Shown here: positions 2,881 through 55,519 of the stretch, in pieces
How the letters are laid out: every line of letters begins with the position of its first letter
Position numbering within the stretch: position 1 is the first letter of the stretch
NCBI GenBank assembly: GCA_973895155.1
Contig: OZ316894.1
Span: forward strand, 16,476,216 to 16,540,215
DNA from: Marsupella aquatica
Lineage: Eukaryota > Plantae > Marchantiophyta
Direction: 5' to 3'
DNA: 64,000 nucleotides
The notes under the pieces: model-generated
The model's input: only the letters and a program-made list of their open reading frames with translations
The model's database searches: none
What the model was told of the DNA's origin: nothing
Made by a program: the position numbers and the translations under genes

Positions 2881-5119
2881 TTTTCTGTAAACAACTTCAT
2901 AAGTGCAAAACCTCGATAAGTAATACTTTTATAGTGCACAATCCCATCAAAATGGATTTACGAATAAGTGCATGCCCTTTTGTAACAGAGAAAAAGACTA
3001 GTGGAGTAGAATACTCCTATGTACAATTTGGGTTGCGAGTCAAGAGACTGCGCTGTAAAGCATACTCTCTTACAAGTGCATAATTCTACTGGTTTGCACT
3101 TATCACGTGGTGCAAACCCTTTATTAGTGCACACCGGATGCTTGCGGACTGTACATCCTAGTAAAAAGTTTCCCAGGTAGACTCCGGGTTCACTGATAGC
3201 TCAAGTGTATTTTGCAACCCATGGACCATGTCCAAACCTTGAAATTGACCCGGACAAGAGATTTTACACTAGAAATATGCTATCCGACTAAAATTGACAT
3301 ATCAATCAAAGTACAAATTGAATCATCATCTACAGCATCTATCTAAACTCTTTAACATGCGATTGCACTCTTTCTTTTTCTCGCAGTATGTTTATGAAAC
3401 GTCATCTGGCAGGAAGCCTCCCTAGCCGTTGGATAATGGTGACATGTTTTTGTTATTATGAAATAGACCTGAAATTGTCAATATTTACTTTTTCCATGCC
3501 CAATTCATTACTTTCTGTGCAGCCTGCACATTCCTTGAAATCCACTTGCCAGGCCCACACGCCGACTCCATCGCAGTGTCCAGCTGTTTGGTCATCTCAA
3601 GTTTGCTCGACAGCCTTTCCGATCAACATCACTTTTTATCAACAATACTATGCAACACTCGGGCATTGGACTAGTCTTGTATACTGGCATCACACTGGCA
3701 AGAACAAAATGGGCCAAAACTGGAGACCCAACACATGGAAAACGCAAGTGAAAACCCCGGGAATGCTCGAGTTCTCCACAAATATTGCTTCCCATTTCGA
3801 GACCCATTTTAGCTAGTTAGAGAGAACATTGCACAAGCTGTCTTGCAAATTATTTTTGGTTCTGTCCTGATCACATAAACTTCATGAACGCCAAAGGCAA
3901 GATAGATTTCAAGGTATCTGTGATTATGCTAAGGTTTGAATCTGGTACCTTTTTTGTCCCGAGACAGCAAGTCCATCCAAATGGCATGATTCGTGGGTGA
4001 GGTCCCTCCAGGCTTTAACTTCTAACCCTACAGTGTCGTGAGCACAGTTGTCGTGAGGGAAGTAAGAAAGCTACTTTCAGTTGCTTCCTAGACTATCTGT
4101 TCGTTTCTTTGTTAATCTTCTTTGTTTCAGCGGCACAATTTTGCCAAGCACGTTCAGATTGCAGAAAATTTCTTTGTAGAGAGTTCAGTCTTCTTTAACC
4201 ACTACCTAGCTTTCTCTCGTGTCTCTCGACTGCAATCTTTTGTGTTCTCAATATATTTTTAGCTTATCATTGATAGAAGAACTGTCTGAAAATCTATGTA
4301 TTGTACTAATAATCTCCATCCAATGTAGAGATTAAATCTGCAACGGGTACCTCAATATCCTCCTGACTCTACAAGCCTCCAATGAGGTGCACTAGTGCCT
4401 ACTACTAGAGATTCGTGACTGATGGCTTGGCCCTATGGCTTGTGCCTGCTGAAGCCGCACCAGGATGAAATGGATTCTCAACAAGTGCATTGGTGCTCAT
4501 CTTTGAACTGAGCGAGACTCTACACAGACTCGATGCCCATCGTGAGTTTCTCTTTGTAACTTTTGGTGCTATATGGAGAAGAATGCGCAGTCGAGATTTG
4601 GAACTGGGCATTATTAAACATCTCCTATTCTTTTACTAAAAACAGTTTTCATTTCGTATGTTTACGGTCCAGGGTATAGGGTTTAGAAAGAGCTTTCTGG
4701 ATGTCCAATCACTCTCTACTTTTAGTCCTCCAAATTCCTTCTCTTTAATAGACCTTCTCCCCTCACTTTATAATCCCCGGTACCCTTTCGACAATCTCAA
4801 AGCTGAGACTGATCAGGGTCGCTTCCTGATCTGGAACTGGGGCTGTATTTGATTCTTTGGCCAGATAATTTAACCTCGGAAGAAGGGTGGACCTCTTCAT
4901 TCAGCTAATGGAACGCCACAGCATAAGCTATTCAGGTTGTCACCGATTTGGCCTTTTTTTATCTTGGCACCACTCCATGCCTCACCAGGGGCCATTGCTG
5001 TGGTCACTAAACTTGGCTTTGTCAAACACTGAGCTGGTGGACACTGAGTATGTCTGATGTAATATTTACAAACACTATTGTGTCCCAATTGCTCCAGAGT
5101 GATTGAATGAGAAAGGATT

Positions 5120-7614
5120 CTAACTCTCTAGAGACTGCACTACGATGTCCACCATGAGCCTCAGATATGTGAGCATTTGAGCTCTGGAGTATAAGGGGGT
5201 TGGATATACCCCAGTGAAGTGAAGCGCTCCATTTCGGACAGAATCAAAGATGGCCAATGCGGGCCCGACTCCATGAATCGAGGAGCAGCCCAGGTAGTGT
5301 TCTATTCCCAGACTTTCAGACAAGCCCTCCATTTCAGCCAAAACAGGATCTTGAAAGACAACTAGAAGAGATGTTCGCATGGAGCAGGATGGTGTTAATC
5401 CTGGATGTTGAAGAGCTTGGAACATGAGGTAGTTGAGATCTCCCATATCAGTGAAGTGCTTCCTGTTCCTCATGGAGTCCTCCAGTCCATTAGAGGACCT
5501 CTTGACCAATTCCCAGAAATCCGTATGCTCATTAACATGGTGAGTGTTCATGAGTGCAGAATGATAGAATCCTGTGCACAACACCAAGGAACATTTCTCC
5601 CCTTGTTAGTAGTTTGCAATCTATTGTTGGCGTGGTCTCTCCGCATGCAGCAATGGTTCAAAGAGAAATGCAACCAGATTGGGACATTAAAGCAGCCTAA
5701 TTGACTTCATCCGAAGAAAGTGCACTCTTTGAGTGAGATGCCACAGATTGAAGGTCTACCAGGAAACATTGGCTACTGCGATGTCGGGATTTCCCCAATT
5801 TAATTAAACCAATCCGTGGTCTTGTCATGATGAACTGGACGAGAAGCATCGTACACCAAGTATCACCAATTAAACCAAAATTTAGTTAGTGGAGCTAAAG
5901 TGAAGCCAAAGAAACATACCGACTGTAGATTCTGAGAGTTGTGGTTGCAAAAACTGGCGGCAATTGACGAGGCTGATGATTGCAAAGTGCTCTGATCGCT
6001 TGCCAAGCAGCTTCATTGCAGCTGCTGCCTTCATTCCTGCAGCAGAAAGAGCTCCATACACGCTGGTGCCTCTCTTTTTACATGCCTGATGAGCACAGAA
6101 AAAACCTAAGTTAGGTCCTCATGCCAAGTGAGCAGCCAACATGCACTGTACAGACATTGCATCACACAATTCCAAATTTGAAGACATCATAGTCGACATT
6201 GAAGCTCTTTCGTGACAGCTCAAGGAACACGGTTGGCGAGCAGTTGTGTAAAAGGTCTCTCAACCACCGAGCATTTCTATTTCTATTTCTATTTCGCGAG
6301 CATTAGGATCAGAATTACCTTCCACTAGGGTCACCGAACTCCCAACTGTTGTGCATCAACCTCAGTCACTAACAGAAAAAATTCTCATGACACGAATATT
6401 GGAACCAAACCAAGATACCATACACATTCCCAAGGTGAGTATGCCTCACTCTACAAAAACTCAAAAGGAATCTATACAAGCTCCAATTCCTAAATCGTGC
6501 TTCCTGAACCATCATGTACTGCCTATGCATATAGTTGTGTGTGAGCACTTGTTCGGTTGGACATCAAGAGAACTTAAACAGAGAACGAGTGGTAAGAGAA
6601 AGTCACCTCAAGAAGCAACTTGGTGTGTTCCACGCTTAGAATACAGTGGAAGAATTTGGAGCACCGAGGAGAATTAGTCTCTTCAAATGGAAGCAGGATG
6701 TGTCGTCTTGTCCCCAACGAGTATCCCAAAAGATCAATACCGTGTGCCCAGAAGGGTTTATTGGCCTTGCCGGGAGGAATGGCATCCTCCACTGACATAA
6801 AATTGTGAGTACTAGTGTTGGAATCGCTGCTGCATTGATGACCAAGGCTTGATGCTTTAGGAGGGATCCCTTGCACTGCACTGCCAACATCTTCACCACC
6901 AACAGTGATCTCTCGGAGAGCTTTCAAAAGGTCCACCATGACCGTGGCCGCAGCGACACGGTCACAAATGGCAGTGTGGACACGAAGAACAACCAGGGAA
7001 CGGTTTTCCGGAAGCAAGTAAAGACGCACCACAAACATCTGCATCGGCTCCAAGCAATGCTGGCGTTCTGGCCAAATATTTATGTTTAACTCTGTCTCCA
7101 AGTACACCATCCAATTGTGATCCTCCGCATCTTGCAGCTCGGCTGTAGACCACTCCTCCTCACCGCCTGCGTCGTTGACATCCTTCGTAGCCTCCCCTAG
7201 AGATACTGGCGAGGGAGAAGTGGCATCAACGACCTCCACAGTGACAGAGCGATCATCTGGCACTTTGAAAGCAGGGCGACCTTGGACCCACAGAAGCTGG
7301 GAGCGCAGCCGAGGGTGTTGCAACTGCACAGAGATCACAGCTTGCTGAAGAGCCTGAGCGTCTAAAACCCTCTTGAATAAGAAGGAGAGCACAGTGATTC
7401 CAGTCCCACTGCTCACTGCTCTGCACCAATTATGCTCTGTCTCCCCTAGCATCCGGCAGTAGGGCCCTTCAAGGAGTGCCTCGACTTCGGTTGATGCGGC
7501 AGTGGTGTCATCATAACCATCAAGGGGGGTTACTATGGCACTCTTCTCGGTGCCATTGCTATTGCTGCGGCTGGTTTTGCTGATGGCATTGTCATGAATA
7601 TAAAGACCTTTCAT
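5120..7614 (-). CDS. At3g52610-like uncharacterised CoA-dependent acyltransferase/condensation-fold protein
   Basis: Exons 7614-6607, 6085-5920 and 5571-5120 are in frame. Family motifs: LGETEHNWCRAVSSGTGITV, HPRLRS, HTAICDR (HxxxD), IPPGKANKPFWAHGIDLLGYSL, GFYHSAL, KHFTDMGDLNYLM, LTPSCSMRT, GCSSIHGVGP, YPTPLYSRAQM. Confidence 0.9.
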
Positions 7615-7775
7615 CTCAGGAGGACGAGGCTGGTGATAACGCTAACGGCAGTCAGGATCTGCTGCCTCTCCAGGTCCGCCTCCGCCAAATCTCTGCGCTC
7701 CGACGCTAAGAAAGGACGCCGCTCCTTGGGGTTATTCGTCTCCTCGTCCTTGGATCTCAGAAACCCGTTCAGCAT
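7611..7775 (-). CDS. 54-aa upstream ORF resembling the ISY1 splicing-factor N-terminus (gene fragment / uORF)
   Basis: ATG at 7775, TGA at 7613-7611. Translation: MLNGFLRSKDEETNNPKERRPFLASERRDLAEADLERQQILTAVSVITSLVLLR. Recalled plant ISY1 reads about MLNRF...PKERRP(F/Y)LASECRDLAEADKWRQQIL. The ORF is below the track's length cut-off. Confidence 0.7.
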   Translation of the reverse strand: MLNGFLRSKDEETNNPKERRPFLASERRDLAEADLERQQILTAVSVITSLVLLR

Positions 7776-10058
7776 TCCGAGCAGTTTTCGACGCCCTCGC
7801 CAAACTCCCGAAGACCCAAAAATTCACCTCCCCTACGGACTGTCGTCACGTACTTCAAATACTCTTCGTAGGGATTTAGTTGTGTAGTTGCTGCATTTCC
7901 AGCTCCGATCGTAGCGGAGCATCAGTTCATCCACGAAAACTAAGAAAGAGCCAAGCAGCTTAAGCTACTGACAAATCCAGAGACTGCAATGGTTCCTCTG
8001 TCAATCGGAAGACTTTCCACATTTGCCCTGAGACTGCACCACAGCAATTTCACGGTAATAGGAAAAAAACTGTCGCTTTTCTTGCACAACATCAACGAAC
8101 TGTACTCGTCGTGCAGATTTCGTCGAAGCCAAGACTCTTGACGAGAATGATGCCAAACCAAGATACTCAAAATGGCAGATTCCGTTCCTAATTATCTCAC
8201 CACATGGACTGGTAGCTTACAGTGACACATCGTGGTGACTAAAACAAGACACAATGAGATTGGAGTATCATTCAGCCACATCCCACAGAGTATGGAAAGA
8301 AGGAGCTCGAAATCTTTTCCTCGTACTTGAATTTGCCCAAATCACTCATTAGCCTTGGGGGAGCGACGGAAATCACGGAGCTTTAAGGTGCAGACACTCT
8401 TCACTGGAAAGTGGAAAGTGGAAATTGGAAGAGATGGCCTTTTGCTAACTCCTGTTCGTCGCCATATCTTGCTGTGCTGCCGGAGCTTCTCTCGAGGCTC
8501 GGGCTCTTGTGTCGAGAAATGCACGAGTAAAGCTCCCTCTCCAAGTTATGTACCTGCCCTTTCTGGTAAATGTACATCAAAACCCACTACAGTGCCGTGT
8601 GGCCTGTGCCAACAGGTTGGATGGATTTTCCATACGACGATAAACACACGTAAACGATAAACCCAATCTGTTATAAGATTGAGTGGTGTTTCTTCTACGT
8701 ATTTGACTGTTGCTTCTCTTATAATTATGATTGATTGAGTGTTGATTCTCCTAAAGTTTTTTTTAGTTTGTTTTCAGTTTTTTTTTTTGGTTTTGGGTTC
8801 TCCTAAAGTTGCTTTGCGCTATGCAATTACCGGGAAAAGGGAGTTTACCAAATATTGTGCCTCTTGTAAATCTAATTTTTTTAGTAGTTTATATTAAGTA
8901 TTGGTCAGTTCGACAGGTGCCCGATTTCCTATTTCGAGAGGCATCAAATTGACCCAAGGGGGTTGTCGAGTTGGCAAAGTGGCTCAACAAGGTTAGGTGA
9001 GCTGAGTTCCTTTGATTGATTCTGGGCTTTCCTAAGCCCAATCCCAACTCCAGGCTGCACTTTATGCCCTCCCACCAGATAGGCTGCTCTCATTTCCAAA
9101 TGCTACGTAGAGTGTGCCAATCCACATAAGAGTAGAGTTTGCTCAACAAGAGTCACCACAGCAAGTGTAGCCCAACACTAGTAGTCTTCATTGTGGCAAG
9201 TGAGGTTTTGGCTGCAAGCATCACAAATCTACCAGCTTTTTACACAAGCCCCCATCTCAAAGTGGGGTTCACCAAAGCCCTCTGGACACCAAAAACTTGA
9301 CCATTAGAAAAAATGGAGGTCACCTGTATGAAAACTAGCGGGCGGCCACCATCTTAGAGGTGAGGCGGTTGCGATAAATGAATGAGTTAATTAACTTGAT
9401 AGGTGTCCTCCATGGGATCAGGAAGAGCAGTGTGGACCCACTTACAGTTGAGTACTCAACTAATCTATTTCGTAATGCTATTCTAGTCCTGTCAGCATAA
9501 GCGAGAGACACTGAGGGACGGACAAAGAAAAGTGGGCCTACAATGTACAGCACCAAGAAGTGTGGAGCTCAACCAGGCCCACCAACAGACTCAAACAAAA
9601 GTTGGCTGAAGGGCGTATGCTTGCATGCCATGTGTTACAGGAATGTAGTCCTAGCAGCAACGCAACCGAGTTGGGAGAATTTGGAACGCAACCAAGTAGA
9701 GCTGTAAAGGTATCTTGAATCCTTTGGCTCTTGGGTTATGTGGTTCTCATGTCTTTTGGCTCTTAGGCCTTCCATGATTTTCCTTTTGTTTTCCCCCTTT
9801 ACTAATTTTTTTGCCTCTGGCATCCTTTCACCTGGTGTGGTTACTATTTTTGTAATATTTGATAAATTTTGGCATACGGTAGTGACATTTTTGTTTGCGT
9901 CATCAATAAATAATTGTTTTAAATGTGGGCTCCAATGACAAAATATTTCTGGGATTCTTTAGTTCTTGTATAATGCCAAATATTCTTAAATTTGGATTTT
10001 ATAAACACTAGCTCAATACCCATGGGTTGTGCCCAAAATATATTGTTGTACGTATAAC

Positions 10059-10111
10059 AGTTGTCATTGGGTGAAAGTTGTCATTGGGTGAAAGTTGTCA
10101 TTGGGTGAAAG
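10059..10111. repeat. 17-bp tandem repeat x3 (agttgtcattgggtgaa)
   Basis: Three directly visible consecutive copies. Confidence 0.85.
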
Positions 10112-13100
10112 ATGTCATTGAGAAAATGATGGCATTATGTAACAGATGTTGTCATATATGGTGGTCCCCTCATATATGCATCCCTAACCCCTGTCACCCC
10201 CCAACCCATGGCTATTCCATTCTAAAAACATTAAGGTATGTACTTGATGAGCCCCCCAAATGTTACTTGATGGACCCTGAGTGATACGGACCATTGACAT
10301 ACCTTAAATCAACTACTTGTATTTTATTGTTGCCCAGTAGACTCAACTTTGCCAAGTATACTCATTTCCATGGATTGCTATTTCATGTACCAAAGGGAGG
10401 GGCAGGTACACTCTACTTGCATTGCATGGCACTTAGGAGTACAGTGGGGCGGTTGAGTACAAAGAAAGACACTAGTCAGGATTGGACCAGGGACTGCACT
10501 TGCAAGTACACTGGAGAGTATCAAGTGGCTTGTTTTACTCTTGATTTTATTTCATAGATTTTGTCTTCCAACTGTGTCTCCCTTGTAACATTGAAGTTTG
10601 TGAGACCACCATTGCCTTTGGGACCCTGTCTCCCAGTTTGGCCTTTTTGTTTGTTTGCATTGTTTTATACATCAGTGTGAGCTCTTATTAAAGTTTTTGA
10701 TATTGTGGGGTTCTTGTACCCTAAACATGGAAACACTGAATTGGTTGTACTCTAGCCCTACTTCCCCACCTTCCCATCCTACTTCAACAATTAAGCACTC
10801 TGGCTCACAGATCTTAATCTATGATCCATTAGCTCTTTTCTTAATGTTGTTGTCGTGGATTTTCATTGGTCAACTTTATTTTATATATACGGCCCCCATA
10901 ACTAGTTCTTTGAAAAACTTCTGCCACAGTGATGCGCCACACAATCAAATTTTGCCCCAAGCCCAAACCTGCATGTTTGGAGTTTTCTTAAATACACCCA
11001 TTCATGTGTGGGGCAAAGCTGGCAAAAACGTTATGCCCAGGACTGTAAAAAACCTACAAAAAATGATAATTACTTTGCAAACAACAAAGATTGGTGAGGG
11101 ATTTTTTGCCCTAAACCCTAAACCAGATCTAATCATTTTAGTTATGTTTTGGATTTTGGCAAATGAAAAAAAAAACATTTGAGGAATAAAATTTGATTAC
11201 TTGATAGTCAATTTTCATGTACTGATATCAGTGTTTACGTTAACAACCAAATCTGAAGCCTGGATGGACCAACACGTTGTCCCCACCCATCCCCATGGAC
11301 TGTGTAAAGCAATCAGTCTGCTTCCACCAAAAAGAAAAAGGAATCAGTAAGCATATTGCATTGATGACATTCACAACACTGTGGAGAAAGTAGTCAAGGC
11401 GTCAAGTCCCATTTAAAAAAAATACCCTCTGCTCATTGTAATGTTGTCTGAATGGCTCAGCAATGTTGCCAAGAGAAGAGTGGAAAGCATCTTCAAGCTA
11501 AGATCTCAGCCCAATTGAAAGAAAGCAAAATAAATAAATGAAATGGAAGGTGTGGTTGAAAACATTTGCGCCCCTTCATTGCTCCCATATCAAGGATTCA
11601 AGTCTGCCCCTTAAGAAAATAGTTGAGTAGTCACAAACTACACAAATACATGATGCATTTTCAAAATATGTGTGACATCTTGACGACTGCCTTGACAAGG
11701 TTGTCAAAGTTGTCAATTGTCTGCGACAGAAACCTTACCTTCAAATTTGACAGATGTGTCAATTTATTTTAAGTACTTCTGGATCTCAGTTTAGGCTGAA
11801 ATGTTTGGAGCATGGTGTCTGATGTCCAGTGTATTTAACGACAAACTTTGAGACTTTTTTGGGATCATTTGCTCCATTTCCAACTTGCACAAAGATGGTC
11901 AAACATTACAACTCATGATTTCATTTAACTTTTCATGTGGGTCAACTGAAAACTGGTGTTCCTGAGTAATGGCATGAAGTCACGTTCAAGGTTGTCAGGG
12001 AGACCAGTTTGGATTGTTCTGGAAATGGGCTAAGGAGGCCATTTACAGGTCACAATTGAGTCGTGTAAACAACATTATCTGGGTCAATTTCAAGGTTTCT
12101 GAGAAAGTCTGTCCTAGCAAGTCTATCCGAGCTTTGCCAATCCATCCGGGCTTCACAAACAAAGGGGCAAGTCCATCCTGGCTCCACAAACGACCTGGAG
12201 GTCCATCCTTGCTTCCGATTGTCTCAGGAGACCACAGGAGCTTACTAAAATAATTTTACACTTAGAAACTGCATGATTGCTTTCACTTTCCTCATGCACC
12301 AGAGGATTGGCCGCTGATCCTCATTCAGTATTGCACTACTGAATGAGAGACCAATGGAGAACCTTCACAGTTTGCAGGCCACACAGCCCATTTCCTCGTA
12401 GATCCCCTCAAGGAGTATCGGCAGCTGGAATCGAGGATCGCCACGAATTGCTCTACATGTGTGTGGATCTTTCAAGAGGAGAACGTCGAAGGAATCTAAT
12501 GAGTTCGATTTGTACATTTCTGGTTTCTCTGCACCTGAGATCTCGCAATCAGGGTGGGTGTTCCATTGGTAGAGCTATTGGAATTTGTGGGCACACCTCT
12601 ACTTCCTCAGGTGGGGGTATTCCTTAATCGCAATCAGGGTGTGGTCTCTGTGTGATTGAGCAATTGGGTGCAATTGACCGCGGTTGACACAACGATGATG
12701 GCCGCTGATGACAGTCACTAATTTGCAACTTGTAAGAAATCAATTTCATGAATGCTATTCTTCCCCGAGAGGGATTTTAATCAGCTCTTCGCATTTGGGG
12801 GATTTTTCTGTGTATGTACGGTATCCGATTTGGGCGTTCCGAACTCCGAAGCTCTTGAGAAGATATCTGTTTCAAACTCCCGGTCGCTGTGACTTCGTTG
12901 TATGAACAAAATAATCACCAGGTTGCGGCGCTGAATTCTTGCTAGACCGATCATTTTCACCTGCTAAATCCTCAACCAGCCAGATCGCTGCTGAATTTCG
13001 CTGAAACATTCTGCTGAGTCCACTTCCGTGATGAAATGATCTGGCGAGATAATTTGGGGAGCTTTGCTGTGCCGTGAATTTTTCTACCCTCGTCCTCCGC

Positions 13101-13329
13101 TTGCCACTCCAAGTACTGAAAACGATGTCCCAACACGACTCGGCAGAAAGCCCTAAACGAAGGAATCCGGCAGTGGGAGCAGTAGTAGCATCAGGAGTTG
13201 CTCACCAACACGACAACAATAACGGCAATATCTGGAGAAGAATTGGAAGAACACGAAGAAGACAAGCGGCAGCAGCAGGTGAGTGAATGTGGGCCGATAG
13301 GAGAGGAAGTAAGGATAGGGTTCGGAGTG

Positions 13330-15440
13330 ATGATCAGTGAAACGGCAAGGCAGGAGGAAGAATTCAGGGATGACATTGATCATTCGGAACAGACCAATTC
13401 GTCTTCTTCTGGTGGTGGTGTTGTGGGGACAACAGTGCCTACAACGATCAGTCTAGATGATCTTCAGCAACGCGCCATGGAGAGTCCTCTGATGAGGAGG
13501 ATGGAGAGAGAGGAACGACTCCGACCCAGATTGGAGAATGGAGGAGGGCAAGAAGGGTCGATTGCAAGGAAACCGAGGGTGGGGGATCACCGTCACAATA
13601 TGGTGGTGGGGGCATCAATGAATAATTATTACTACTCAGCATCCTCAGGCTCGTCCAATTCAGGGGCGAAGGTAGATTATTACTCTAGTTGCAGCTGCAA
13701 ACTACCGGACCATCTGATCGAGAGCGTGCTGGCGAGATTGCCCGTGCAGAGCGTGTTCCGCTTCCGGTCCGTGTGTCGGGCATGGAATTCGCTCCTCTAC
13801 TCGCCGACCTTCCTCAACGCCTACTCGGAAGCCTCCTCAGCAGGAGTAGGAGGAGGTGGAGGAACAATCCACAGCCACAACAACAACAACGTCTGGTTCC
13901 TCGTCGTGACGGCCAATTTGGGGCGGTTGGGACGGTATGGGCACCGAATTGTGGCCACCTACGATCCCCAGTGCAACAATTGGCACCGAATTCCGCTCCC
14001 TGCTCCACTTTGCAGCCTTAATCCCTACCCAACGGCGGCCGACGGAGGCTTGGTTTGCTACTTTGTTTATGAGAACCGGTTACGCACTCTGTTCGTCTGC
14101 AATCCACTGACGAAGTCTCTGCGGAAGCTGCCTCTGGTGTTGAAGACTTCCTCCCACATCAGTGTGCTGAAAATGGTGATGGAGGATCGAGCTACGAGTT
14201 CTTACAAGGTGTTCGTGGCTGGCATGGTGCCCGGGGAGAATGGCAATGACAGTTTGAGCATGGAGGTGTATGACTCCGCAACCGATTGCTGGAGCACGAG
14301 TGGCATCATTCCTGCTAGGTACCTTCTGACCTTAAGCCCTTGGGCAGGAGGTGTTTGGTGTAGAGTCTCCGCGGGTTATGACATCTGAGAATTGTTTCCA
14401 ACACTGCTATCATTTGTAAAATTCTGGCATAAACATTCAGAAAATTTAGTGTCCACCCTTTCGAATATCGATACTTTGACAATCTTAGAAACTTCAATTG
14501 TAAAAGTGAGAGTTGGAAAGGATAAAGGAATGGAAGGGACACCCTATACCATTGATTTGCACATGCTAAAGATGCATGGGACTTGAACCCAGCCATCCCT
14601 CTTGGGCAGTCAGATTTGATGAAGATGGTAGAAGTTGAATGGCTAGATTCATGGGAATGGGTGTGTCCAATTTGGGCATATCACGTGGATTATCTTATTT
14701 TGTGTGGATGCACCAACAGGGGACAATGATGGTAAATTCTGGTTTGTCCTCATTTGTCTCGTAAGACTTTGCTGTTCAAGAAAAATGTAATGGATGTGAA
14801 GGGAGCTTAAATGTTGTGATTTTGAGCAAAGTACAAGTTTCTCTATCTTGTGTGCTCAATTCATCAGACTTTTCTCCTGGACAGGTATCCCAAGAGGAGA
14901 CCGGTGTACGGCAATGGAGTGCTCTACGTGAGGTGTTCTGACCAGAGGAGCTTATTACTGACGTACGATCTGAAAGAGGGTATTTGGAATAAGATCCACG
15001 CTCCCCTGCCTCATACATTAGGGATCGAGGAGCTTGTACACTACCAGGGCCACATTCTGCTGGTGGGTGTGCTAGGAGAGAACTACAAAATCGACAGCGT
15101 GTGCATCTGGGAGCTCGTGCACCAGCAGAATCCTCTTAATGTGGCTTGGAAGCAGGTGGACACTATGCCCCAAGATATGTTCGTGGAGTTTTACTGTGAC
15201 CGGGAATACTTCGAGTGCCAGGAGGACGAACGGGTGCTAATGAAGTGCTGCCAATATGGTGATCTTATTTTATGTGTGGCATTCAGCATTAGTCACCTGG
15301 GGCCTTTCAAGGTGCTGGCTTATGATCTCGCCCAAAAGCGGTGGCGTAAGCTGCCAGACTCTTTTAAAGCTCGGGAATGCAGAACGCATAAGTTCATCGA
15401 GGGTATAATTTACGAGCCGCGGTTGGACGTCATTGCATAG
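13330..15440 (+). CDS. F-box/kelch-like (F-box-associated) protein; start codon uncertain
   Basis: F-box LPDHLIESVLARLPVQSVFRFRSVCRAWNSLL, followed by AADGGLVC, LFVCNPLTKSLRKLP, YKVFVAG, MEVYDSATDCW. Intron 14319-14884 (GT..AG) joins in frame to RYPKRRPVYGNGVLY...YEPRLDVIA*. The first in-frame ATG is 13330. Confidence 0.88.
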
Positions 15441-17883: not shown

Positions 17884-18297
17884 CTATACCCAGCTGCCAG
17901 ATTGGAGCTGTGTCTTGTCAAAAGCTTGGGAGGCTGCAGCCATCATGCTCTGCTCCTCAGGCGAGGCTTGCTCCCCACATAAACACTGGTACAGAGCGAG
18001 GAAACCTTCAACGTCCACAACGGCACCACCACCACCTCCCGGACTCGTATCGCTGCGAAGTGTCCTTCCATTGCCATAGACGAGGAGGAGAGTCTCCGCC
18101 TCACTCTCCGATATCTCGAATGCTAGTACCCGGCTCATGAACCCCCGCAGATCCGCCGCGCAGATCAGCCCGTCGTTGTTCTCGTCCACGCACGTGAACA
18201 CCTCACTCAGCTCCTCAGCAGTCGGAGTTGAAGAATAATTCAACTCTCGAAGGTGATGCTGATATTTCATCATGTTTACTAGTACCGGAGAGTTCAT
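17884..18297 (-). CDS. Calmodulin-like EF-hand protein, apparently C-terminally truncated (possible pseudogene)
   Basis: EELSEVFTCVDENNDGLICAADL (EF-hand 1), a degenerate second hand VDVEGFLALY, then EEQSMMAAASQAFDK, which stops at the start of the expected third loop. Confidence 0.7.
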   Translation of the reverse strand: MNSPVLVNMMKYQHHLRELNYSSTPTAEELSEVFTCVDENNDGLICAADLRGFMSRVLAFEISESEAETLLLVYGNGRTLRSDTSPGGGGGAVVDVEGFLALYQCLCGEQASPEEQSMMAAASQAFDKTQLQSGSWV

Positions 18298-20027
18298 GGT
18301 TGAGTGGTCGTGGGAGAGCTCTCCACTAAGATGTGCCTCCTCTTCTTCTCGCTCTTCTTCTCTGCTGAAGATTTTGTGTCGGTCGTGAGAAAGAGATAAT
18401 CTCAGCCGGTCTGTCGATGTAGTGATTTTCGCGATTTAAGCCCCATGACCTTTCGTCCCTACAGTGGCAGTCAGAGTGGAGGAATCCGAATCGGTGCGAT
18501 TTGAGAAAGCCTTTTCGTGATAGACATATATGTAAGTATGGCCTATTTCTGAGCCTGGGCCGCTGCGGATGGGAAGCAAACTATGTTTTTTCCTCGACTG
18601 ACAATGCCGCAGACATGTATTTATATTCACTACGATGATGGGTACAGACGCCAGTGGCCCAGCGAGAACTTTTATTAGAACGTTCTGATGCGAAAGCTCT
18701 TCAGCCTCGTGATGGAGTGCCCTTCAACCTTCTCTCGATCACAGACTGATAACCGTCGGTCCTTCTCTGAAGGTCAATCGCGTGATAGAGTGAATGACCT
18801 TCTGTTTATGACAAGTAGTTGGAATGGAAAGCTCTCGCTCGCCTCTTCATGATGAAATGCCCGTTAATCTGGTGGTAGAATTGCCTGCAGTTTTCTCTCA
18901 GTGTAGATTCCACTTGACGTGTTGGAAAGCCCTTTAATTTAGCCTTCCGATCGAATGCCCTTTACTTTCTCGATAAGCGGTCTCCTCAACTGATACATCA
19001 TAGGCTTGCATTGGCACCGTCCCCTTTCATGTCCGACATTTGAAAGATTTTCGCAGCCAGACACAGTCATGGGATCTCCTCTGAACCGAAGACTCTGTCA
19101 ATCAGATAGAATCATTGGACCTCTAATTGATCTCAACGTCCCAATTGATTCACAAGCCGATTCAATCAGACAACGAAACCAGCACTCTCCAAAGTGCCTG
19201 TTCTGCTGATTCAAGGAAAAAATCAACGCCTGTACTCTCCTGAAGAATGTTCGGTCCTCAACAACTCGAGCAAAAACCAAAAACCTCCGATACACTTGTC
19301 TGCTTCTCTAGCTTAACTCCGAGATCGTTGATCACAACCGAAACGGGATGGACAGTCTCAAGAATCGAATGCAGTCCAATCCAATCCAATCCAATCTAAT
19401 CACCCTGCACGAATGCAGCTTTGTTGTCAAGATCTACCACACCAGCGATCGAGCGCCGGGCTGGAATGCAATAATCTCGTCACCGTCACAATTCACTCAT
19501 ATTATTGTATTATTACTTCTCACAAACTTGAACATCCTCACTTCCTGTTTAAGTAGCACCCCGGCCCCATGATCGACTCAAACGATCCCTCCAGTTTACA
19601 GCACTGTAGCATTCAGTGCACCGGTCGTTTCGGCACTCGAAATCATGGAAAACGCCGGGCTGGAAAGACCCTGTCTCGCTCCTTTGTACAGAGGTCGATC
19701 TAATTCGACCCAATTGGAGTATTGGACACTTTGACTCAAGCAACCCTTTCGTAAAAATTCAGCAAGCTAGAAAGCGCACTTTGGTATGATACTATGATCA
19801 TTAAATTAATTAAATCTATTCATGATTCTGCCAACTACCTTTTCGTACGGGACGTTCAACAACATCAAAACGCCGGGCCAGAATTTATCTACCCCAGGCA
19901 GAATCGAAACAGATAACACCGATTGTTTCTCTTCACCCACCACCGTCTACTCTTCGTCTTCTAATATTATAGTATGCAATATCCCAATTTATTTTTCATG
20001 GTTTGAATATGAAATGTAGTCTTGGCA

Positions 20028-49406: not shown

Positions 49407-52329
49407 TTAGTATGGAGAACTCTGAGCAACCCGTCGCTTAGTCTTGGCTTTTGCAGGAACCTCCGATATCCCTAAGGCATCCTCCATGTTGCCTATTGGT
49501 TTCTTTGCCTTGGCTTTTACACGCTCAGATATCCCTAAGGCATCCTCCATGTTGCCTTGCCTCATAGATATGTATCTCACTTCTTTTAGAAGAGTGTCTA
49601 ACATCTGGTTGTTGATAACTTTGTAGTCCCTACCAAGAATAATACCCTAAGTCAGCCCAGATTACAAATTTCTTTGCTCTAGTCTTGAAACATGCTTCCA
49701 CATATACTTCAAACTGAGATTTACTAGCTTGCCAATTCTTCTTGTCCAAATACATACTCTGCCAATCTTTTTAGTTTAATGAACACTTTGACATCTTTTC
49801 TCATCAGGGTTAATCATAATATGTGGTATCTCAAAAAAATCCAACAGTGGCCAAATTTATATCTGATGGGTGACCGAGATGGCTGAAGCCCCCCTCGATC
49901 TTAACTTGCACCCCTTCTCAGCCTCCAACTTGGAGATGAGTCTCTTGTTGTCACTAATTAAAGGTGACTATGAGGAGGACAGGATGACCACAAGAGCCTC
50001 GCCCCCAAGCTGGAGGGCAGTAACAGTGGGATGGACTAACCAGGGTTGAGGGTAGTTTCAACCATTTGATTCATAAAAGGTGCAAGTATATTGCCCTCAC
50101 ATCACTATAAACCTAGGTTTATTTTATCTAACCCAGAGTGAAGAAAGATAAAAAAAAGTACTAGTTAAACTAAGAATAATGGCAATTTAAGTATGTATTT
50201 GGACAAAAATATGACAACCTAGTAAATCTCAGATCCTCAAAACGGTAATGTAGGCATCAATACAAAATTGAGCTTGAAACCCAGTCAAAGCACATATTTG
50301 ATAAATGGTAAAGCGTCAACCACACAGTTCATAAACAGAAGGAACTTTAAGGGCTTTTGGGATTTGCACTAAAATACTGAATCATGTCAGCTATTGAACC
50401 CCATGCACATTGCAATGACAAGTTGACAGCTCAAGCTCAACATCTGCAATTTAGTGCCTATACAAACATTTTAACTATGAACATGTTTTGTGAAACAAAA
50501 GGCCATGGAGAAATTTCAGTGTAGTACTTGTCTTGCTACGTACTTTACCTTTTGTCATTGTGACTTATGCTTAAATCATTCAAGCACTTTGCAACACTTC
50601 TCAAAGCAATGACAAATGTCTTTTCCTCATATCTAAGAGTTCCTGAGTGAATTATCGTGGTTCTGGAAATGAGATAGGTAGGCATCCTAGTTTGAAGTAA
50701 GATAGAGTTTTAAGGTTGATATGTACTTGTAACTCAAGAAGGAGTATAGGAGGAAAACCAATGCCAAAGCAGAGGCTGTATATCGCAGCAAGCCAACGTT
50801 ACTTGGCAACCAAGTGTCACTCTCTTTACTTGACACATCCTCCATTCCATAGTGAACCATATAAATCTCGCCTACTAAAGTGCCAAACAATCCTGATTCA
50901 ATGGACAACACTAGCCATCAATTAGCAGTAGTCCTAACAAAATATTAACCCACCTCCTTGCTGGTGGGCACAAAAAAGTCTCTCATGCAAAGCAACTGTC
51001 TTGGCTGGAAAGGATACTGGAAAGGATGTTTGCATAGTGGTTATAGCTTTTAATTATGTGAAGAGATGAGCAAGCTTCCAATGGTTATTTTTATAACAAT
51101 TCAGTATCCAACACACCAATATAGAGGCTAAGGCGTGCACTTCGGGTCTTCTTTGTGGTAGTGGCAATATAAATTGCCGCAGATGCCCCAACATAAAATC
51201 CAGCACTACGCAATATACGGGACTCAAACACCCAACCCTTTTGAATAGCCATCAACGCCTCAAGCACTTCCATAATAAGCTTGTTGACCTGGGATTGCTT
51301 TGACAAGATTGTCTCCTGATTCAAGAACCAACATAAGATACAAAGAGCCAATTTGGCCAAGTTAAGATTCATTGTGTTAAAACACTTAATAGTGAAAACC
51401 AAACAATGATGATCATGTGCTAGTTGGTTTCCCTATACCATAATTATATTGCCAGGTTTGGAAGGTTGTAGACCAGAAAGGTGGTTTGACCATACGCCAA
51501 TTCGTATAGCCTTTTGGTTGGGCAAAAAATTGGTTTTCTCTTGCATTGTTACAACATGAGCCTGATGTCCATGCTGATGCACAGGTAAAGGTTATCAGTG
51601 CCCCAACAGGTTACACCCTCACCCCCCCAAGCTATGCCCCCTCTACAATACAAGGTTTTGTGATCAATACTGTAGATCTGGGAGACACTTGTAGCCTAGG
51701 ATTTTCATGTTATCTGTGCATTCCTCAGTGCATAGGCTATCATTCTGGGCAATCCTATCGATCAGTCATACTCATCCATCACACAGCATGGCTGGTTTCT
51801 TGCCTGGTTCTTGCTCACCTTGAACTCCAAATGGCATGCCCTATAATGTATTTCCTTCATCAGATATCAATGCACTACAAAACTTATGTAAGATTCAACA
51901 CTCATGAAATCATGGGTGCTTTTCGGGGTGCTTTACTAGGCATCTAGTTGCAACATCTCCTATTTGATGGGAGAGTTGAATCGTATACATACCAGTCCAT
52001 AGACACTATGACTCAAACTGATTATGTACTCCTTTCCAATATACCAGACTTTCAAGTGACTGTGACGGGTGTCAGGGTTCTTGATTTGTCCAAAATTTGC
52101 CCATGGATTCTTAGTATGATCAAATGAACAATACTTTTGGGTGGGGTAAATTTTAAGTGGTGCGAGGGCACTAATGTGAATGTCCTCCACTTTTGAGTTT
52201 CAACCTTACAAGCACCTATGCTACCAGTGAGACCATCTTGCCTGGTGGTTCATTGAGTAGCAAGGATAGAGCGCTGAACTTAAACACAATCTATTCGCAC
52301 CAAGCAGGCGCGGATTTCCAAACTCTTTT

Positions 52330-52365
<36 letters not shown>

Positions 52366-52537
52366 TGCCTCATGGATAAAGTTGGGTTTCCCCAATGACA
52401 CCTCCCAACATCTCCTGATTGGGCACCTTTTGAGGTTTGGCAGTTTGGTGTATACCCTGATGTGATGGGAGTGCTGAATCCTAATTGTACTATATGTACT
52501 CATCCAATCTACAAACTTTGCATCCTGTATGAGATTT

Positions 52538-52593
<56 letters not shown>

Positions 52594-53760
52594 CTTTGGC
52601 GGGCTATTTGTAGAATTTGGCACTGCTATGAAATTAGGATTGATTTATACAATGAGACCCCGGACATCTCATTGCTGCATCTCCCGACTTGTAGTGCTCA
52701 ATCCTCAACTTTGAGACCTTTATTAGATTTATGCAAGGGATGAGATCCATTTAGAGAAAGAGAGGCTTGGTTTGTAAGCAGCCGTAGGTGAAATATCTAC
52801 GTAATAATTGATAGGGCTGCTAAATCCTATACATTGAACCCAATATGAAATTTATTCAAGGGATGCGATACATCTAGAGCTCTAGAGAGGCTTGGTTTGT
52901 AGGTAGCCTTTGGTGAAACATCTCCCTATCTGATGAGAATGCCTGATCCTATACATTGAACCCTCTATGAGATTTATTCAAGGGATGAGATGCATGAATC
53001 CTATACATTGAAACATGCATGAGATTTACTCAAAGGATGAGATCCATTTAGAGCAAAAGACAGGTTTTGCTTGTAAATAGCCTTTGGTGAAAAGTCTCCC
53101 TATCTGATAGGTCTACTGAATTCTATACATTGATTCCACTATGAGATTTATTCAAAGGATGAGATCCATTTTGAGAGAAAGAGACTCTTGGGTTGTAAGA
53201 GGACTTTGGTGAAACATCTAGTCATTTGATGTGAGTGCCTAATCCTATATATTGAACCCAGGTGTATGAGATTGACTCAAGGGATGGGATCCGTTTACAG
53301 AGGGATGCTGAATACTATTTATTGAACTTTGTATGAGATCTATTCAAGGATGAGATCCCATGAATTGTATACCTTGAACCCTCTATGAGGTTTATTAAAG
53401 GGATGAGATCCATGGAGAGAAAGGGAGAGAGGGCTTTATGAAAAAGATGAGATCCATTGATAGAGGGAGAGAGCGCATGTCAAGGGCTTTATTAAAGGAT
53501 GAGATCCATTGAGAGAGAAAGAGAGAGAGAGGGAGAGCGGACATTATTAAAGGGATGAGATCCATTGAGAGGGAGAGAGAGGGGCTTTATTTAAAGGGAT
53601 GAGATCCATTGAAAGAGGAGAGGGGGAGAGCAAGAGGCTTTATTAAAGGGAAAGGGATGAGATCCATTGAGAGAGGGGGAGAGAGGAAACAGGGGCTTTA
53701 TTAAAGGGATGAGACCCATTGAATGAGGGAGAGAGGGGTTTTATTAAAGGGATGAGATCC

Positions 53761-53824
<64 letters not shown>

Positions 53825-53864
53825 ATTAAAGGGATGAGATCCATTGAGAGAGAGAGAGATATGT

Positions 53865-53904
<40 letters not shown>

Positions 53905-55519
53905 CATTGATTTTTTGGGAGAGAGGGGTTTTATTAAAGGGATGAGATCCATTGAGAGAGGGAGAGAGAGGGGCTTCATCAAAGGCATGAGATCCATTGA
54001 AAGAGGGAGAGACAGGGGCTTTATTAAAGGGATGAGATCCATTGATTGAAAGGTGGGAGAGAGGGCCTTTATTATTAAAGGGATGAGATCCCATTGAGAG
54101 AGGGACAGAAGGTAGGGGTGGGGGGAGGGGGGCTTTGGTTTGTACATGGCCTTTGGTGATTTGAGCTGCAGATTCAGCAAGGGTTTCGTGGGTGCCCCTC
54201 AACTGGGTCTGCCAACCTTGATATTCATCGTATACTTTAAGTGCCTCGTTAGAAAGTCTTTGCAGATCCTGCTTCGTCTGTTTCCGAGCATCCTCGTACA
54301 TTCCTTGGAGGTCCGTCAAGCTTTTTTTGGCCTCCTCTCGTCGAGTCTGCGACTGCTCTGCCAAATCCTCGACCGACCCATACACGCTAGCTATGGAATT
54401 CGCCAGACTGTTGCTTTTCTCTTGCAGCGCGCCCAACTCAGTCGTCATCACTTCTGAAAGCTCCTCATGCTTGCGAGCAACGTCCTTCTGCAGCCCGTGG
54501 ACGTCTTCTAGCCCGCTTCGCACGAGGAGTGAAGTCTCCTGCATCTTCTCCATCCCCTGCTGGATCGAGTCCTGTAAGGCCACATGGCCCTTCTGCAAAA
54601 TTTCCTGAGCTTCGAGTATGTACCCGGTGTGCTCCATGATCGCCGAATGCTGCGCGTCGAGATGTACGTTCATCTTCTCCAATTTGCCCTGAGTCACGTG
54701 GGCAGAGTCTTGCAGCAGCGTCACCGCCCTCTCCGTCTCGAGTTTGAATTCCTCACTCCTGCGGAATTCGCCGTCACCAGGCAAGAATGAACGTTGTCAC
54801 GACGACTATCGATGTGCATTTGTTTAAAGTTTGGTCGCTTAGGGTTTGCCATATTTATCTCATGATAGTATCCATCAGGCAGTACAGTGCAGTGCACAGC
54901 TAGTCACCATAGTACAACGGACTAGCTCACAACAAGTCACCTTGACCATGAATTAAGTAAATCTTGATGCATAGACTCAGAATGCACGACATGAGGGAAC
55001 TTACTGTAAATAATGGCACATTGCTGCTAGGTCCACGAAAAAGGCCAGGAAGATGGAGTGAGTGTGATCATCCAACACCCTCACGCAGGTAACAACGGGG
55101 ACACTATTAGGACAGTTCTTCAGCGCTTTGCGCCCGGAAGTCACTAAGAAACAATCTGTCAACCGAAGAGCCAATCTTGATTTTTTGGCCTCGTCGTTCA
55201 GAATTTCTCTACAACCTGTTTCCATTCCCTCGTAAGCTTTCTGCCAACAGGTGTGCCCTGTAGCCATCAGGGATGTGGATTTCTCGTATAGTTCTTTCCC
55301 TCTAACGGCCAGAACTCCCACGGAGTCCAATTCAAATGCGGCACCGCCGCGGTCCTGGATTGCACTCTTTCCGTAGGAGGTGGAGTCAGAATCCTTCTTA
55401 GTCCCACCAAACCATCCCCAAGCTTCGGTGTCCAGCACTTCCAAACTCAAGATTAAGACGAGTAGCGGCATTCGTAACCCAACACATGGTATTGCTCGTG
55501 GTGTTCTGTGACTTCCCAT
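49407..55519 (-). CDS. GEX1: GAMETE EXPRESSED 1 (Kar5/GEX1/Brambleberry nuclear-fusion family)
   Basis: Exons 55519-55005, 54758-54146, 51315-51117, 50892-50727 and 49629-49407. Signal peptide plus WGWFG, Cys-rich domain (CWQKAY..C..LTDCFL..C..C..CHYLQ), SEEFKLETERAV coiled coil, ESRILRSAGFY, RLSLYIGL and further hydrophobic helices, then YKDYKVINNQML. Confidence 0.93.
49714..50232. mobile_element. Fold-back / long-TIR non-autonomous element in the last GEX1 intron
   Basis: Arm 49714-49812 (ctgagatttactagcttgcc...tgtccaaatacatact...ttagtttaa...gggtta) is an imperfect reverse complement of 50129-50232. Confidence 0.65.
52330..54100. repeat. (GA)n microsatellites plus compound minisatellite with core ttattaaagggatgagatccattga, in GEX1 intron 2
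   Basis: Pure GA tracts at about 52330-52365, 52542-52591, 53764-53820 and 53866-53902. The core motif recurs more than 15 times between about 52725 and 54095. Confidence 0.95.

What the first reader, a model, noticed from the sequence alone, without database searches (positions are those of the whole stretch)
7611..7803. ISY1-derived upstream ORF whose stop overlaps the start codon of the acyltransferase-like gene (ATGA coupling)
Seen: a 165-nt ATG-initiated ORF (7775-7611, minus strand) encodes MLNGFLRSKDEETNNPKERRPFLASERRDLAEADLERQQIL-TAVSVITSLVLLR*. Its TGA overlaps the main ATG in ...agATGAaa. Known: the N-terminal part closely follows the conserved start of the spliceosomal NTC protein ISY1 (MARNEEKAQS-MLNRF...PKERRP(F/Y)LASECRDLAEADKWRQQIL, as recalled). 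That family is unrelated to the downstream gene, and the rest of ISY1 is absent here. Weak extra sign: 28 nt upstream, TTGGCGAGG resembles a decayed ATGGCGAGG (MAR). Inference: a captured ISY1 5' fragment now forms the leader of a metabolic gene. It could act as a translational-control uORF with stop-start reinitiation. It could be a microprotein with a new hydrophobic tail that competes with ISY1. It could also simply have donated ISY1's promoter.
Basis: partly seen in the sequence, partly recalled or inferred. Interest (0 to 1): 0.85.

Follow-up and report, generated by a model that had tools for sequence, protein, structure and literature searches.

The report
Decaying ISY1 fragment replaced gene's start
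In what is likely a leafy liverwort, a copied front piece of the splicing gene ISY1 sits where a likely acyltransferase gene's own start codon used to be; the piece is broken in different ways in related copies and the stop-start overlap follows from a one-letter loss, so it is likely an accidental promoter swap and not a purpose-built translation switch.

Summary
The 54-codon ORF, its ISY1 origin (Pfam Isy1, E 1.4e-5) and the ATGA overlap are real; the reading as a coupled uORF or microprotein is not supported. Orthologues show that the 'main ATG' (7614) is the ancestral internal Met15. The 'new hydrophobic tail' is the acyltransferase's own old N-terminus (TAVSV against TAVTI), one base short, so the ISY1 frame runs into the TGA that any Met-Lys codon pair holds. 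ISY1 codon 51 was joined in frame to the acyltransferase's Met1 codon. The ISY1 piece then decayed: Met1 is now ACT (7785, not TTGGCGAGG), 20 nt are deleted, and 5 of 28 near-invariant residues are changed. A near allele reads GTG at the uORF start; a related copy has two in-frame stops. The downstream gene is intact (541 aa) with a normal branch length. Best reading: a chimeric duplicate that likely donated ISY1's promoter, with a relic ORF that would only dampen translation. No RNA data were available. A new case of a known kind.

The parts
7786..8010 (-). ISY1-derived 5' leader and proximal upstream DNA (upper border approximate); likely donated promoter
   Evidence: X5 record 26, read by elimination as the intact ISY1 upstream contig, aligns 7704-7871 (20 other letters, 20-nt gap) and again from 7951; its loose end read by hand matches the window to about 8010 and then departs. 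CpG o/e 0.84-1.1 in 7601-8200 against a window median of 0.52.
7795..7803 (-).
7774..7785 (-). Relic of ISY1 codons 1-4 (reads T-A-R-N; Met1 codon is ACT)
   Evidence: ISY1 columns 1-10 MARNEEKAQS in 117 of 117 anchored sequences; row 7784
7772..7773 (-). Site of a 20-nt deletion (ISY1 codons 5-11) in the window's allele; the ORF's ATG sits at the deletion joint
   Evidence: table 4: two X5 contigs carry 20 more letters behind 7772
7611..7775 (-). 54-aa upstream ORF, out of frame with the main ORF and overlapping its ATG
7656..7775 (-). ISY1 codons 11-50, degenerate (R14G, K23T, K25N, C37R, W46E at near-invariant columns)
   Evidence: intact ISY1 contig matches 7674-7727 at 53 of 54 letters and goes on as R-W-R-Q-Q-I-V-R-E-I (read by hand)
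7653..7655 (-). Fusion joint: CTG, in the place of ISY1 codon 51 and of the acyltransferase's ancestral Met1
7615..7652 (-). Relic of acyltransferase residues 2-14: TAVSV in the uORF frame (7652-7638), a codon one base short (7637-7636), HQPRPPE in the main frame (7635-7615)
   Evidence: 38 nt against 39 expected; TAVSV against TAVTI scores 17, reached by 3 of 127,966 positions of the window; alignment
7611..7614 (-). ATGA overlap = ancestral Met15-Lys16 codon pair
   Evidence: P0002, P0122 MKGL and P0003 MKSL at residue 15
6607..7614 (-). Exon 1 of the acyltransferase-like gene (from ancestral Met15)
5920..6085 (-). Exon 2 (Pfam PapA_C, E 2e-05, under the cut-off)
5120..5571 (-). Exon 3 to the stop codon; spliced CDS 541 aa, both introns GT-AG

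Best explanation
A duplicated front piece of ISY1 is joined in frame at the old start codon of an acyltransferase-like gene, and it likely supplies that gene's promoter while its own reading frame decays. Shown: the joint (ISY1 codon 51 on acyltransferase Met1), a 1-nt loss five codons later that uncoupled the two frames, loss of ISY1 Met1, a 20-nt deletion, amino-acid decay, other breaks in related copies, and an intact downstream ORF from the ancestral Met15. Inferred: transcription starts in the ISY1-derived DNA above 7785; ribosomes that start at ATG 7775 make a useless peptide and pass ATG 7614, so the main protein would be made by leaky scanning and the relic ORF would act as an accidental, mild repressor, not by stop-start reinitiation.
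For: Orthologue N-termini MTAVTISQQPLLPEMKG / MTAATIAQQPLPPEMKS; relic TAVSV at 38 nt against 39 expected, 3 of 127,966 positions score as high. Intact ISY1 contig in X1, X2, X4, X5 leaves the window at 7674 and continues as ISY1. X5 near allele (record 27, 5 other letters) has the 20 nt, GTG at Met11 and the window's dead letter at 7784; related copy in X1, X4, X5 reads a stop at codon 3 (5-nt loss) and an in-frame TAG after a 12-nt duplication (loose ends read by hand). 5 of 28 near-invariant columns changed against 0-2 in 117 real ISY1. Main ORF intact, end branch 0.11 against 0.13-0.14 for Calypogeia, 5 departures at 120 invariant columns against 6 and 3; a neutral ORF of this size would stay free of stops with P 0.015-0.16 at 0.07-0.03 changes per site. 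In X2 one contig alone covers 4800-6350 at 88% likeness, so no second close full-length copy was laid. Overlapping out-of-frame uORFs typically repress and the main ORF is reached by leaky scanning (PMC10275272, section 13).
Against: No transcript, start site or ribosome data. Record 26 is assigned to intact ISY1 by elimination, and contigs of the related copy are linked by depth only. Tables are cut (45 and 20 rows hidden) and a filter drops records, so an unfused parent copy is not excluded. The X4 allele differs from the window in the coding region by 7 non-synonymous and 2 synonymous listed changes (P 0.63 if neutral, 0.02 at omega 0.2), which points to relaxed selection in at least that lineage. 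56 of 57 letters in 7674-7730 equal intact ISY1, somewhat higher than the 12% overall difference, and the codon 45-46 change looks like two compensating 2-nt indels that kept the frame. The relic N-terminus test was chosen after seeing the alignment and is weak against Marchantia and Riccia (scores 8-10).
Confidence: 0.65

Rival explanations
1. The whole fused gene is a slowly dying duplicate; an unfused parent elsewhere does the work, and nothing in the leader matters.
For: X4 allele 7 non-synonymous to 2 synonymous listed changes; contigs with 1-nt insertions in exon 3 (5395, 5399) in X1 and X4; an X4 contig leaves the window at 7659 for other sequence; copy number of the related copy differs between runs.
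Against: Intact 541-aa ORF and GT-AG introns; normal branch length and invariant-site count; two frame-breaking indels in 171 nt of leader and none in 1626 nt of CDS (P 0.03 at the lower rate bound); no second copy of exons 2-3 laid in X2.
Confidence: 0.12
2. The relic ORF has been co-opted as a selected regulatory uORF (stop-start reinitiation or peptide-dependent control) of the acyltransferase.
For: ORF open for 54 codons with purine at -3; frame kept across codons 45-46; 56 of 57 letters equal to ISY1 in 7674-7730.
Against: Near allele has GTG at this start and a dead Met1; related copy stops early; both differences from the organism's own ISY1 that the contig borders place in 7674-7733 (7697, 7731) change the amino acid; ATGA is the ancestral Met-Lys pair; no TGGGA in 7720-7612; Sphagnum-like loci L001-L004 have no ISY1 piece upstream.
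Confidence: 0.09
3. The fragment lies upstream of the transcription start or contributes no promoter; it is an inert scrap and the gene is driven by other DNA.
For: TATA-like words occur only at 8675-8893, outside the ISY1-derived part; ISY1 likeness ends near 8010.
Against: The fragment replaced the gene's own leader up to Met1, so a start below 7775 would have to be new; a start at 8675 or above would put 12 further ATGs into the leader; CpG o/e stays high over 7601-8200.
Confidence: 0.09
4. Splicing inside the leader restores an ISY1-acyltransferase fusion protein.
For: 18 GT-AG pairs of 60 nt or more would leave an open frame from ATG 7775.
Against: None resembles the gene's real splice sites (donors GTTTCT, GTCCTT, GTCGGA, GTTAGC; purine-rich acceptors); none of 164 ISY1 hits carries acyltransferase sequence and none of the homologues held carries ISY1 sequence.
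Confidence: 0.03
5. The 54-aa peptide is a microprotein that competes with ISY1 in the spliceosome.
For: It keeps the KERRPFLASE core; the Isy1 N-terminal domain clamps the branch helix (PMC8022279, passages).
Against: Lacks residues 1-10, changed at R14, K23, K25, C37, W46, lacks the C-terminal helices that tether Isy1 to the NTC, absent in the near allele, not in the protein collection.
Confidence: 0.02

Closest known systems
Chimeric gene duplicates formed from partially duplicated 5' fragments (PMC3449122 section 3.4, passages; PMC4069613, passages)
   Same: A duplicated 5' piece of one gene, with its upstream DNA, is fused to the body of an unrelated gene in parallel orientation; the donor gene stays intact elsewhere; such chimeras are common and tend to change regulation.
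   Different: Here the fusion frame was lost and the recipient falls back on its internal Met15, so the donor likely gives only a promoter and a relic ORF; the chimera may have replaced its parent (cf. the globin chimera named in PMC3449122).
ISY1 / Ntc30 (Pfam PF06246)
   Same: Residues 11-50 are homologous; 53 of 54 letters equal the organism's intact ISY1 at 7674-7727.
   Different: Met1 lost, codons 5-10 deleted, everything after codon 50 missing, five near-invariant residues changed.
Conserved peptide uORFs of plants (PMC7106846, passages)
   Same: A 54-codon ORF upstream of a metabolic gene.
   Different: Not conserved in orthologues or alleles; its tail is part of the main protein in orthologues, the case that ESUCA discards as spurious; it overlaps the main ORF.
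Stop-start (AUGA) termination-reinitiation, TURBS type (PMC10275272, section 13 and passages)
   Same: Stop and start codons overlap, frames differ.
   Different: No TGGGA motif upstream; overlap explained by ancestral Met-Lys codons; not kept in related copies.
Land-plant condensation-domain / PapA_C acyltransferase-like family (Calypogeia fissa P0002, Marchantia P0005, Physcomitrium P0006)
   Same: 80% identity to the Calypogeia protein over 532 columns, same clade (100/100).
   Different: Starts at residue 15. The family has HTxxCD, not the HHxxxDG motif that I recall for condensation domains, so the enzyme activity itself is unproven. The link to Arabidopsis AT3G52610 (called AtNAT-like in bioRxiv 10.64898/2026.10.09.758010, one passage) is recalled and was not tested.

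Membership tests
Chimeric gene duplicate | 5' part derived from a different gene | tested here: met
   Pfam Isy1 E 1.4e-05; contig match to intact ISY1
Chimeric gene duplicate | Donor gene persists elsewhere (duplication, not translocation) | tested here: met
   Contigs in X1, X2, X4, X5 continue as ISY1 past the joint; only 10 codons of the continuation were seen
Chimeric gene duplicate | Outgroup orthologues lack the donor part | tested here: met
   P0002, P0122, P0003 start at MTA; no ISY1 piece in L001-L004; DNA upstream of the liverwort orthologues was not available
Chimeric gene duplicate | Transcribed as one unit from the donor promoter | not testable with these tools
   No RNA run was available to lay
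ISY1 protein (functional) | Complete N-terminus, conserved residues and C-terminal NTC-binding helices | tested here: not met
   Residues 1-10 and 51 onward missing; 5 of 28 near-invariant columns changed
Conserved peptide uORF | Peptide conserved upstream of orthologous main ORFs | tested here: not met
   near allele lacks the start
Conserved peptide uORF | Ka/Ks below 1 | tested here: inconclusive
   No full DNA of relatives could be fetched; the two differences placed against own ISY1 are both non-synonymous (inferred from contig borders)
Conserved peptide uORF | Not part of the main protein in orthologues | tested here: not met
   Tail = residues 2-14 of orthologues
TURBS-type stop-start reinitiation | Stop and start within about 20 nt | tested here: met
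   ATGA at 7614-7611
TURBS-type stop-start reinitiation | 18S-complementary motif upstream of the stop (TGGGA, recalled) | tested here: not met
   0 matches in 7720-7612
TURBS-type stop-start reinitiation | Downstream output depends on termination at the overlap | not testable with these tools
   Needs reporters

The most novel reading that the evidence does not exclude
A conserved, apparently single-copy land-plant acyltransferase gene swapped its promoter for that of a housekeeping spliceosome gene through an in-frame fusion, then un-fused by a frameshift, and selection has since been removing the inherited upstream start codons by separate routes (ACT at Met1, GTG at Met11, a stop at codon 3); living alleles with and without the overlapping uORF would then differ in enzyme dose and form a natural series for the birth and loss of a uORF.
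Probability: 0.25. Interest if true: 0.55.

Novelty: new member of a known kind. Interest (0 to 1): 0.3.

Why it matters
It is a clearly readable example of how gene-fragment capture can replace a gene's promoter and start codon and leave a uORF behind, with alleles at different stages of decay. It is also a caution for scans: an ATGA overlap between a relic ORF and a downstream ATG arises by itself from Met-Lys codons and is no sign of coupling. It does not reveal a new mechanism.

Tried and rejected
No whole genome is held, so the ISY1 locus and copy number rest on contig pieces. No RNA holder listed. Homologue search with the 70-aa frame among longer proteins: 126 candidates, none at E<=0.001 (weak). 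The ISY1 search listed 120 of 3675 hits, those named all flowering plants; no liverwort ISY1 protein was retrieved, so residues 15-24 could not be polarised; 3 of 120 were dropped for lack of the anchor motif, and 31 of 44 representatives likewise (among the 13 left the ORF departs at 2 of 17 columns). Metagenome scan: 5 loci, 40-64% identity, none of close kin, no ISY1 piece. No second copy of the gene or of ISY1 in the window. No terminal repeats of a transposon around the fragment in 7400-10500, and no transposase among 24 of 59 long ORFs scanned, so the capture route is unknown. TTGGCGAGG as decayed start: rejected. The plus-strand ORF 7495-7887 has no Pfam hit under E 0.18. Earlier scan notes: nothing found. 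Literature: ISY1+uORF 2 papers, neither on topic by listing; ISY1/pseudogene/liverwort, none of the 15 of 520 listed holds ISY1; some searches gave only general papers on gene capture; general papers on reinitiation and uORFs. No folds were run because the question is not structural. No supplementary files were read; none is expected to bear on the claims.
Full report
Observation. The ORF is there as described: 7775-7611, minus strand, 54 aa, ending in a TGA that overlaps ATG 7614. Its first 45 residues match Pfam Isy1 positions 11-57 (E 1.4e-05), ISY1 chains of the PDB and 44 representatives. The rest of ISY1 is not in the window. The downstream gene has three exons (7614-6607, 6085-5920, 5571-5120), GT-AG introns and an open 541-aa CDS. 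Its best homologue is a Calypogeia fissa protein (71% over exon 1; 80% over 532 columns, clade support 100/100), so the DNA is likely from a leafy liverwort. Pfam gives weak Condensation, PapA_C and AATase hits, all under their cut-offs.

The main ATG is not the ancestral start. The two Calypogeia proteins begin MTAVTISQQPLLPEMKG and the unnamed P0003 begins MTAATIAQQPLPPEMKS. The window reads HQPRPPE-MKG in the main frame from 7635 and, just before, L-TAVSV in the uORF frame (7655-7638). From the first base of the Thr codon to ATG 7614 there are 38 nt where the orthologues need 39. TAVSV scores 17 against TAVTI; 3 of 127,966 five-codon positions of the window reach that (about 3e-4 over 13 registers); against P0003 58 of 127,966; against Marchantia and Riccia the match is weak. 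So the 'hydrophobic tail' is the old N-terminus of the acyltransferase, read in frame for five codons and then shifted by the loss of one base. The stop follows by itself: all three close orthologues have Met-Lys at 15-16, and ATG-AAx holds TGA in the shifted frame. 264 of 1214 Met residues in the 120 homologues are followed by an obligatory A. The ATGA overlap therefore needs no selection.

The joint. Contigs of four runs match 7674-7727 (53 of 54 letters in X2) and then continue with codons that I read by hand as R-W-R-Q-Q-I-V-R-E-I, the intact ISY1. The window has CAG CAG ATC CTG ACT GCC where ISY1 has CAG CAG ATC GTG CGA GAA. ISY1 codon 51 thus sits on the acyltransferase's Met1 codon: the first product was an in-frame chimera (inference).

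Decay of the ISY1 piece. Two X5 contigs carry 20 more letters behind 7772, which restore ISY1 codons 5-11. That places ISY1 Met1 at 7785-7783, now ACT in the frame T-A-R-N; TTGGCGAGG is leader sequence. Against 117 of 120 plant ISY1 (3 dropped, no anchor) the ORF departs at 5 of 28 near-invariant columns (R14G, K23T, K25N, C37R, W46E), where 98 real sequences depart at none, 17 at one and 2 at two; residues 1-10 are identical in all and missing here. The contig borders at 7697 and 7731 place two differences from the organism's own ISY1, both non-synonymous (inference).

Related copies. The X5 contig nearest the window (record 27, 5 other letters) has the 20 nt, GTG at Met11 and the window's letter at 7784, so it has no ISY1-frame ATG; its remaining ATG would open 8 codons in another frame. 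A more distant copy in X1, X4 and X5 (6 of 94 letters different at 7575-7668, no gap, so it shares the 1-nt loss; 13 of 93 at 7780-7872; it shares Gly14) reads a TGA at codon 3 after a 5-nt loss and an in-frame TAG after a 12-nt duplication (loose ends, read by hand; its pieces are linked by depth only). One X4 contig leaves the window at 7659. Sphagnum-like loci L001-L004 carry no ISY1 piece. Neither the start nor the overlap is conserved.

The downstream gene looks maintained. End branch 0.11 against 0.12 plus 0.012-0.018 for Calypogeia; 5 departures at 120 invariant columns against 6 and 3; 14 at 178 bryophyte-invariant columns against 14 and 12. With 0.03-0.07 changes per site since capture (rough, from the 12-14% differences above) a neutral ORF would be stop-free with P 0.16-0.015, and the leader's indel rate would predict at least 3 frameshifts. 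In X2 a single contig covers 4800-6350 at 88% likeness, so no close parent copy was laid, though a filter drops records. Against this: the X4 allele shows 7 non-synonymous and 2 synonymous listed coding changes (45 rows hidden), and contigs with 1-nt insertions in exon 3 exist in X1 and X4.

How it likely works. X5 record 26, taken by elimination as intact ISY1, aligns with the window up to about 8010, so about 225 nt above ISY1's Met1 were carried along and the gene's own leader is gone. CpG o/e is 0.84-1.1 over 7601-8200 against a median of 0.52, a weak sign of an unmethylated promoter region. The gene is likely transcribed from the ISY1-derived promoter. ATG 7775 and ATG 7614 both have G at -3 and no G at +4. 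An out-of-frame uORF that overlaps the main start typically represses, and the main ORF is reached by leaky scanning (PMC10275272, section 13 read; that passage speaks of substantial overlaps, and slight overlaps occur in TURBS-type reinitiation, for which the recalled TGGGA motif is absent here). The 14 lost residues lie in the hypervariable N-terminus. Transcription and translation were not observed.

Comparison with what is known. Chimeric duplicates from partial 5' duplications are common and often change regulation (PMC3449122 and PMC4069613, passages). ESUCA discards uORFs that code for part of the main protein in orthologues (PMC7106846, passages). The Isy1 N-terminal domain clamps the branch helix and is tethered by C-terminal helices (PMC8022279, passages), which the peptide lacks. 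I found no paper on this locus (listings only). AT3G52610 as the Arabidopsis relative is recalled; one passage of bioRxiv 10.64898/2026.10.09.758010 calls that gene NAT-like.

Verdict. A real ISY1-acyltransferase chimera whose ISY1 frame is decaying; likely a promoter swap with a relic, mildly repressive ORF. New member of a known kind; interest 0.3.

Noticed in passing
window 7659-7660, run X4 (table 7): One X4 contig leaves the window at the fusion joint for at least 255 letters of other sequence, after what looks like a 4-nt duplication; on the plus strand the new sequence soon reads TG..., as a retrotransposon end might.
   Followed up: no
   Followed up: partly
window 6472-6924, 7547-7620 and 7804-7918, run X2: Separate contigs hold short pieces of this locus with unrelated flanks: further scattered fragments of the gene and of its leader.
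   Followed up: no
window 7872-7950: 79 nt present in the window and the related copy but skipped in X5 record 26 (table 5).
   Followed up: no
window exon 1, protein motif VHTAICDRV: 16 of 17 family members have HT/HSxxCD here, not the HHxxxDG motif recalled for condensation domains; the catalytic set of this plant family may differ.
   Followed up: partly
window 13189-14388 (+): 399-aa ORF with F-box (E 5e-09) and beta-propeller-like hits.
   Followed up: no
window 17884-18435 (-): 183-aa frame with weak EF-hand hits (E 7e-04).
   Followed up: no
window 10042-10143: Tandem array of 17-nt units, about five copies.
   Followed up: no
window 52001-54000: Strong GC skew (0.32) over a 310-aa minus-strand frame (53864-54796) with no Pfam hit.
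   Followed up: no
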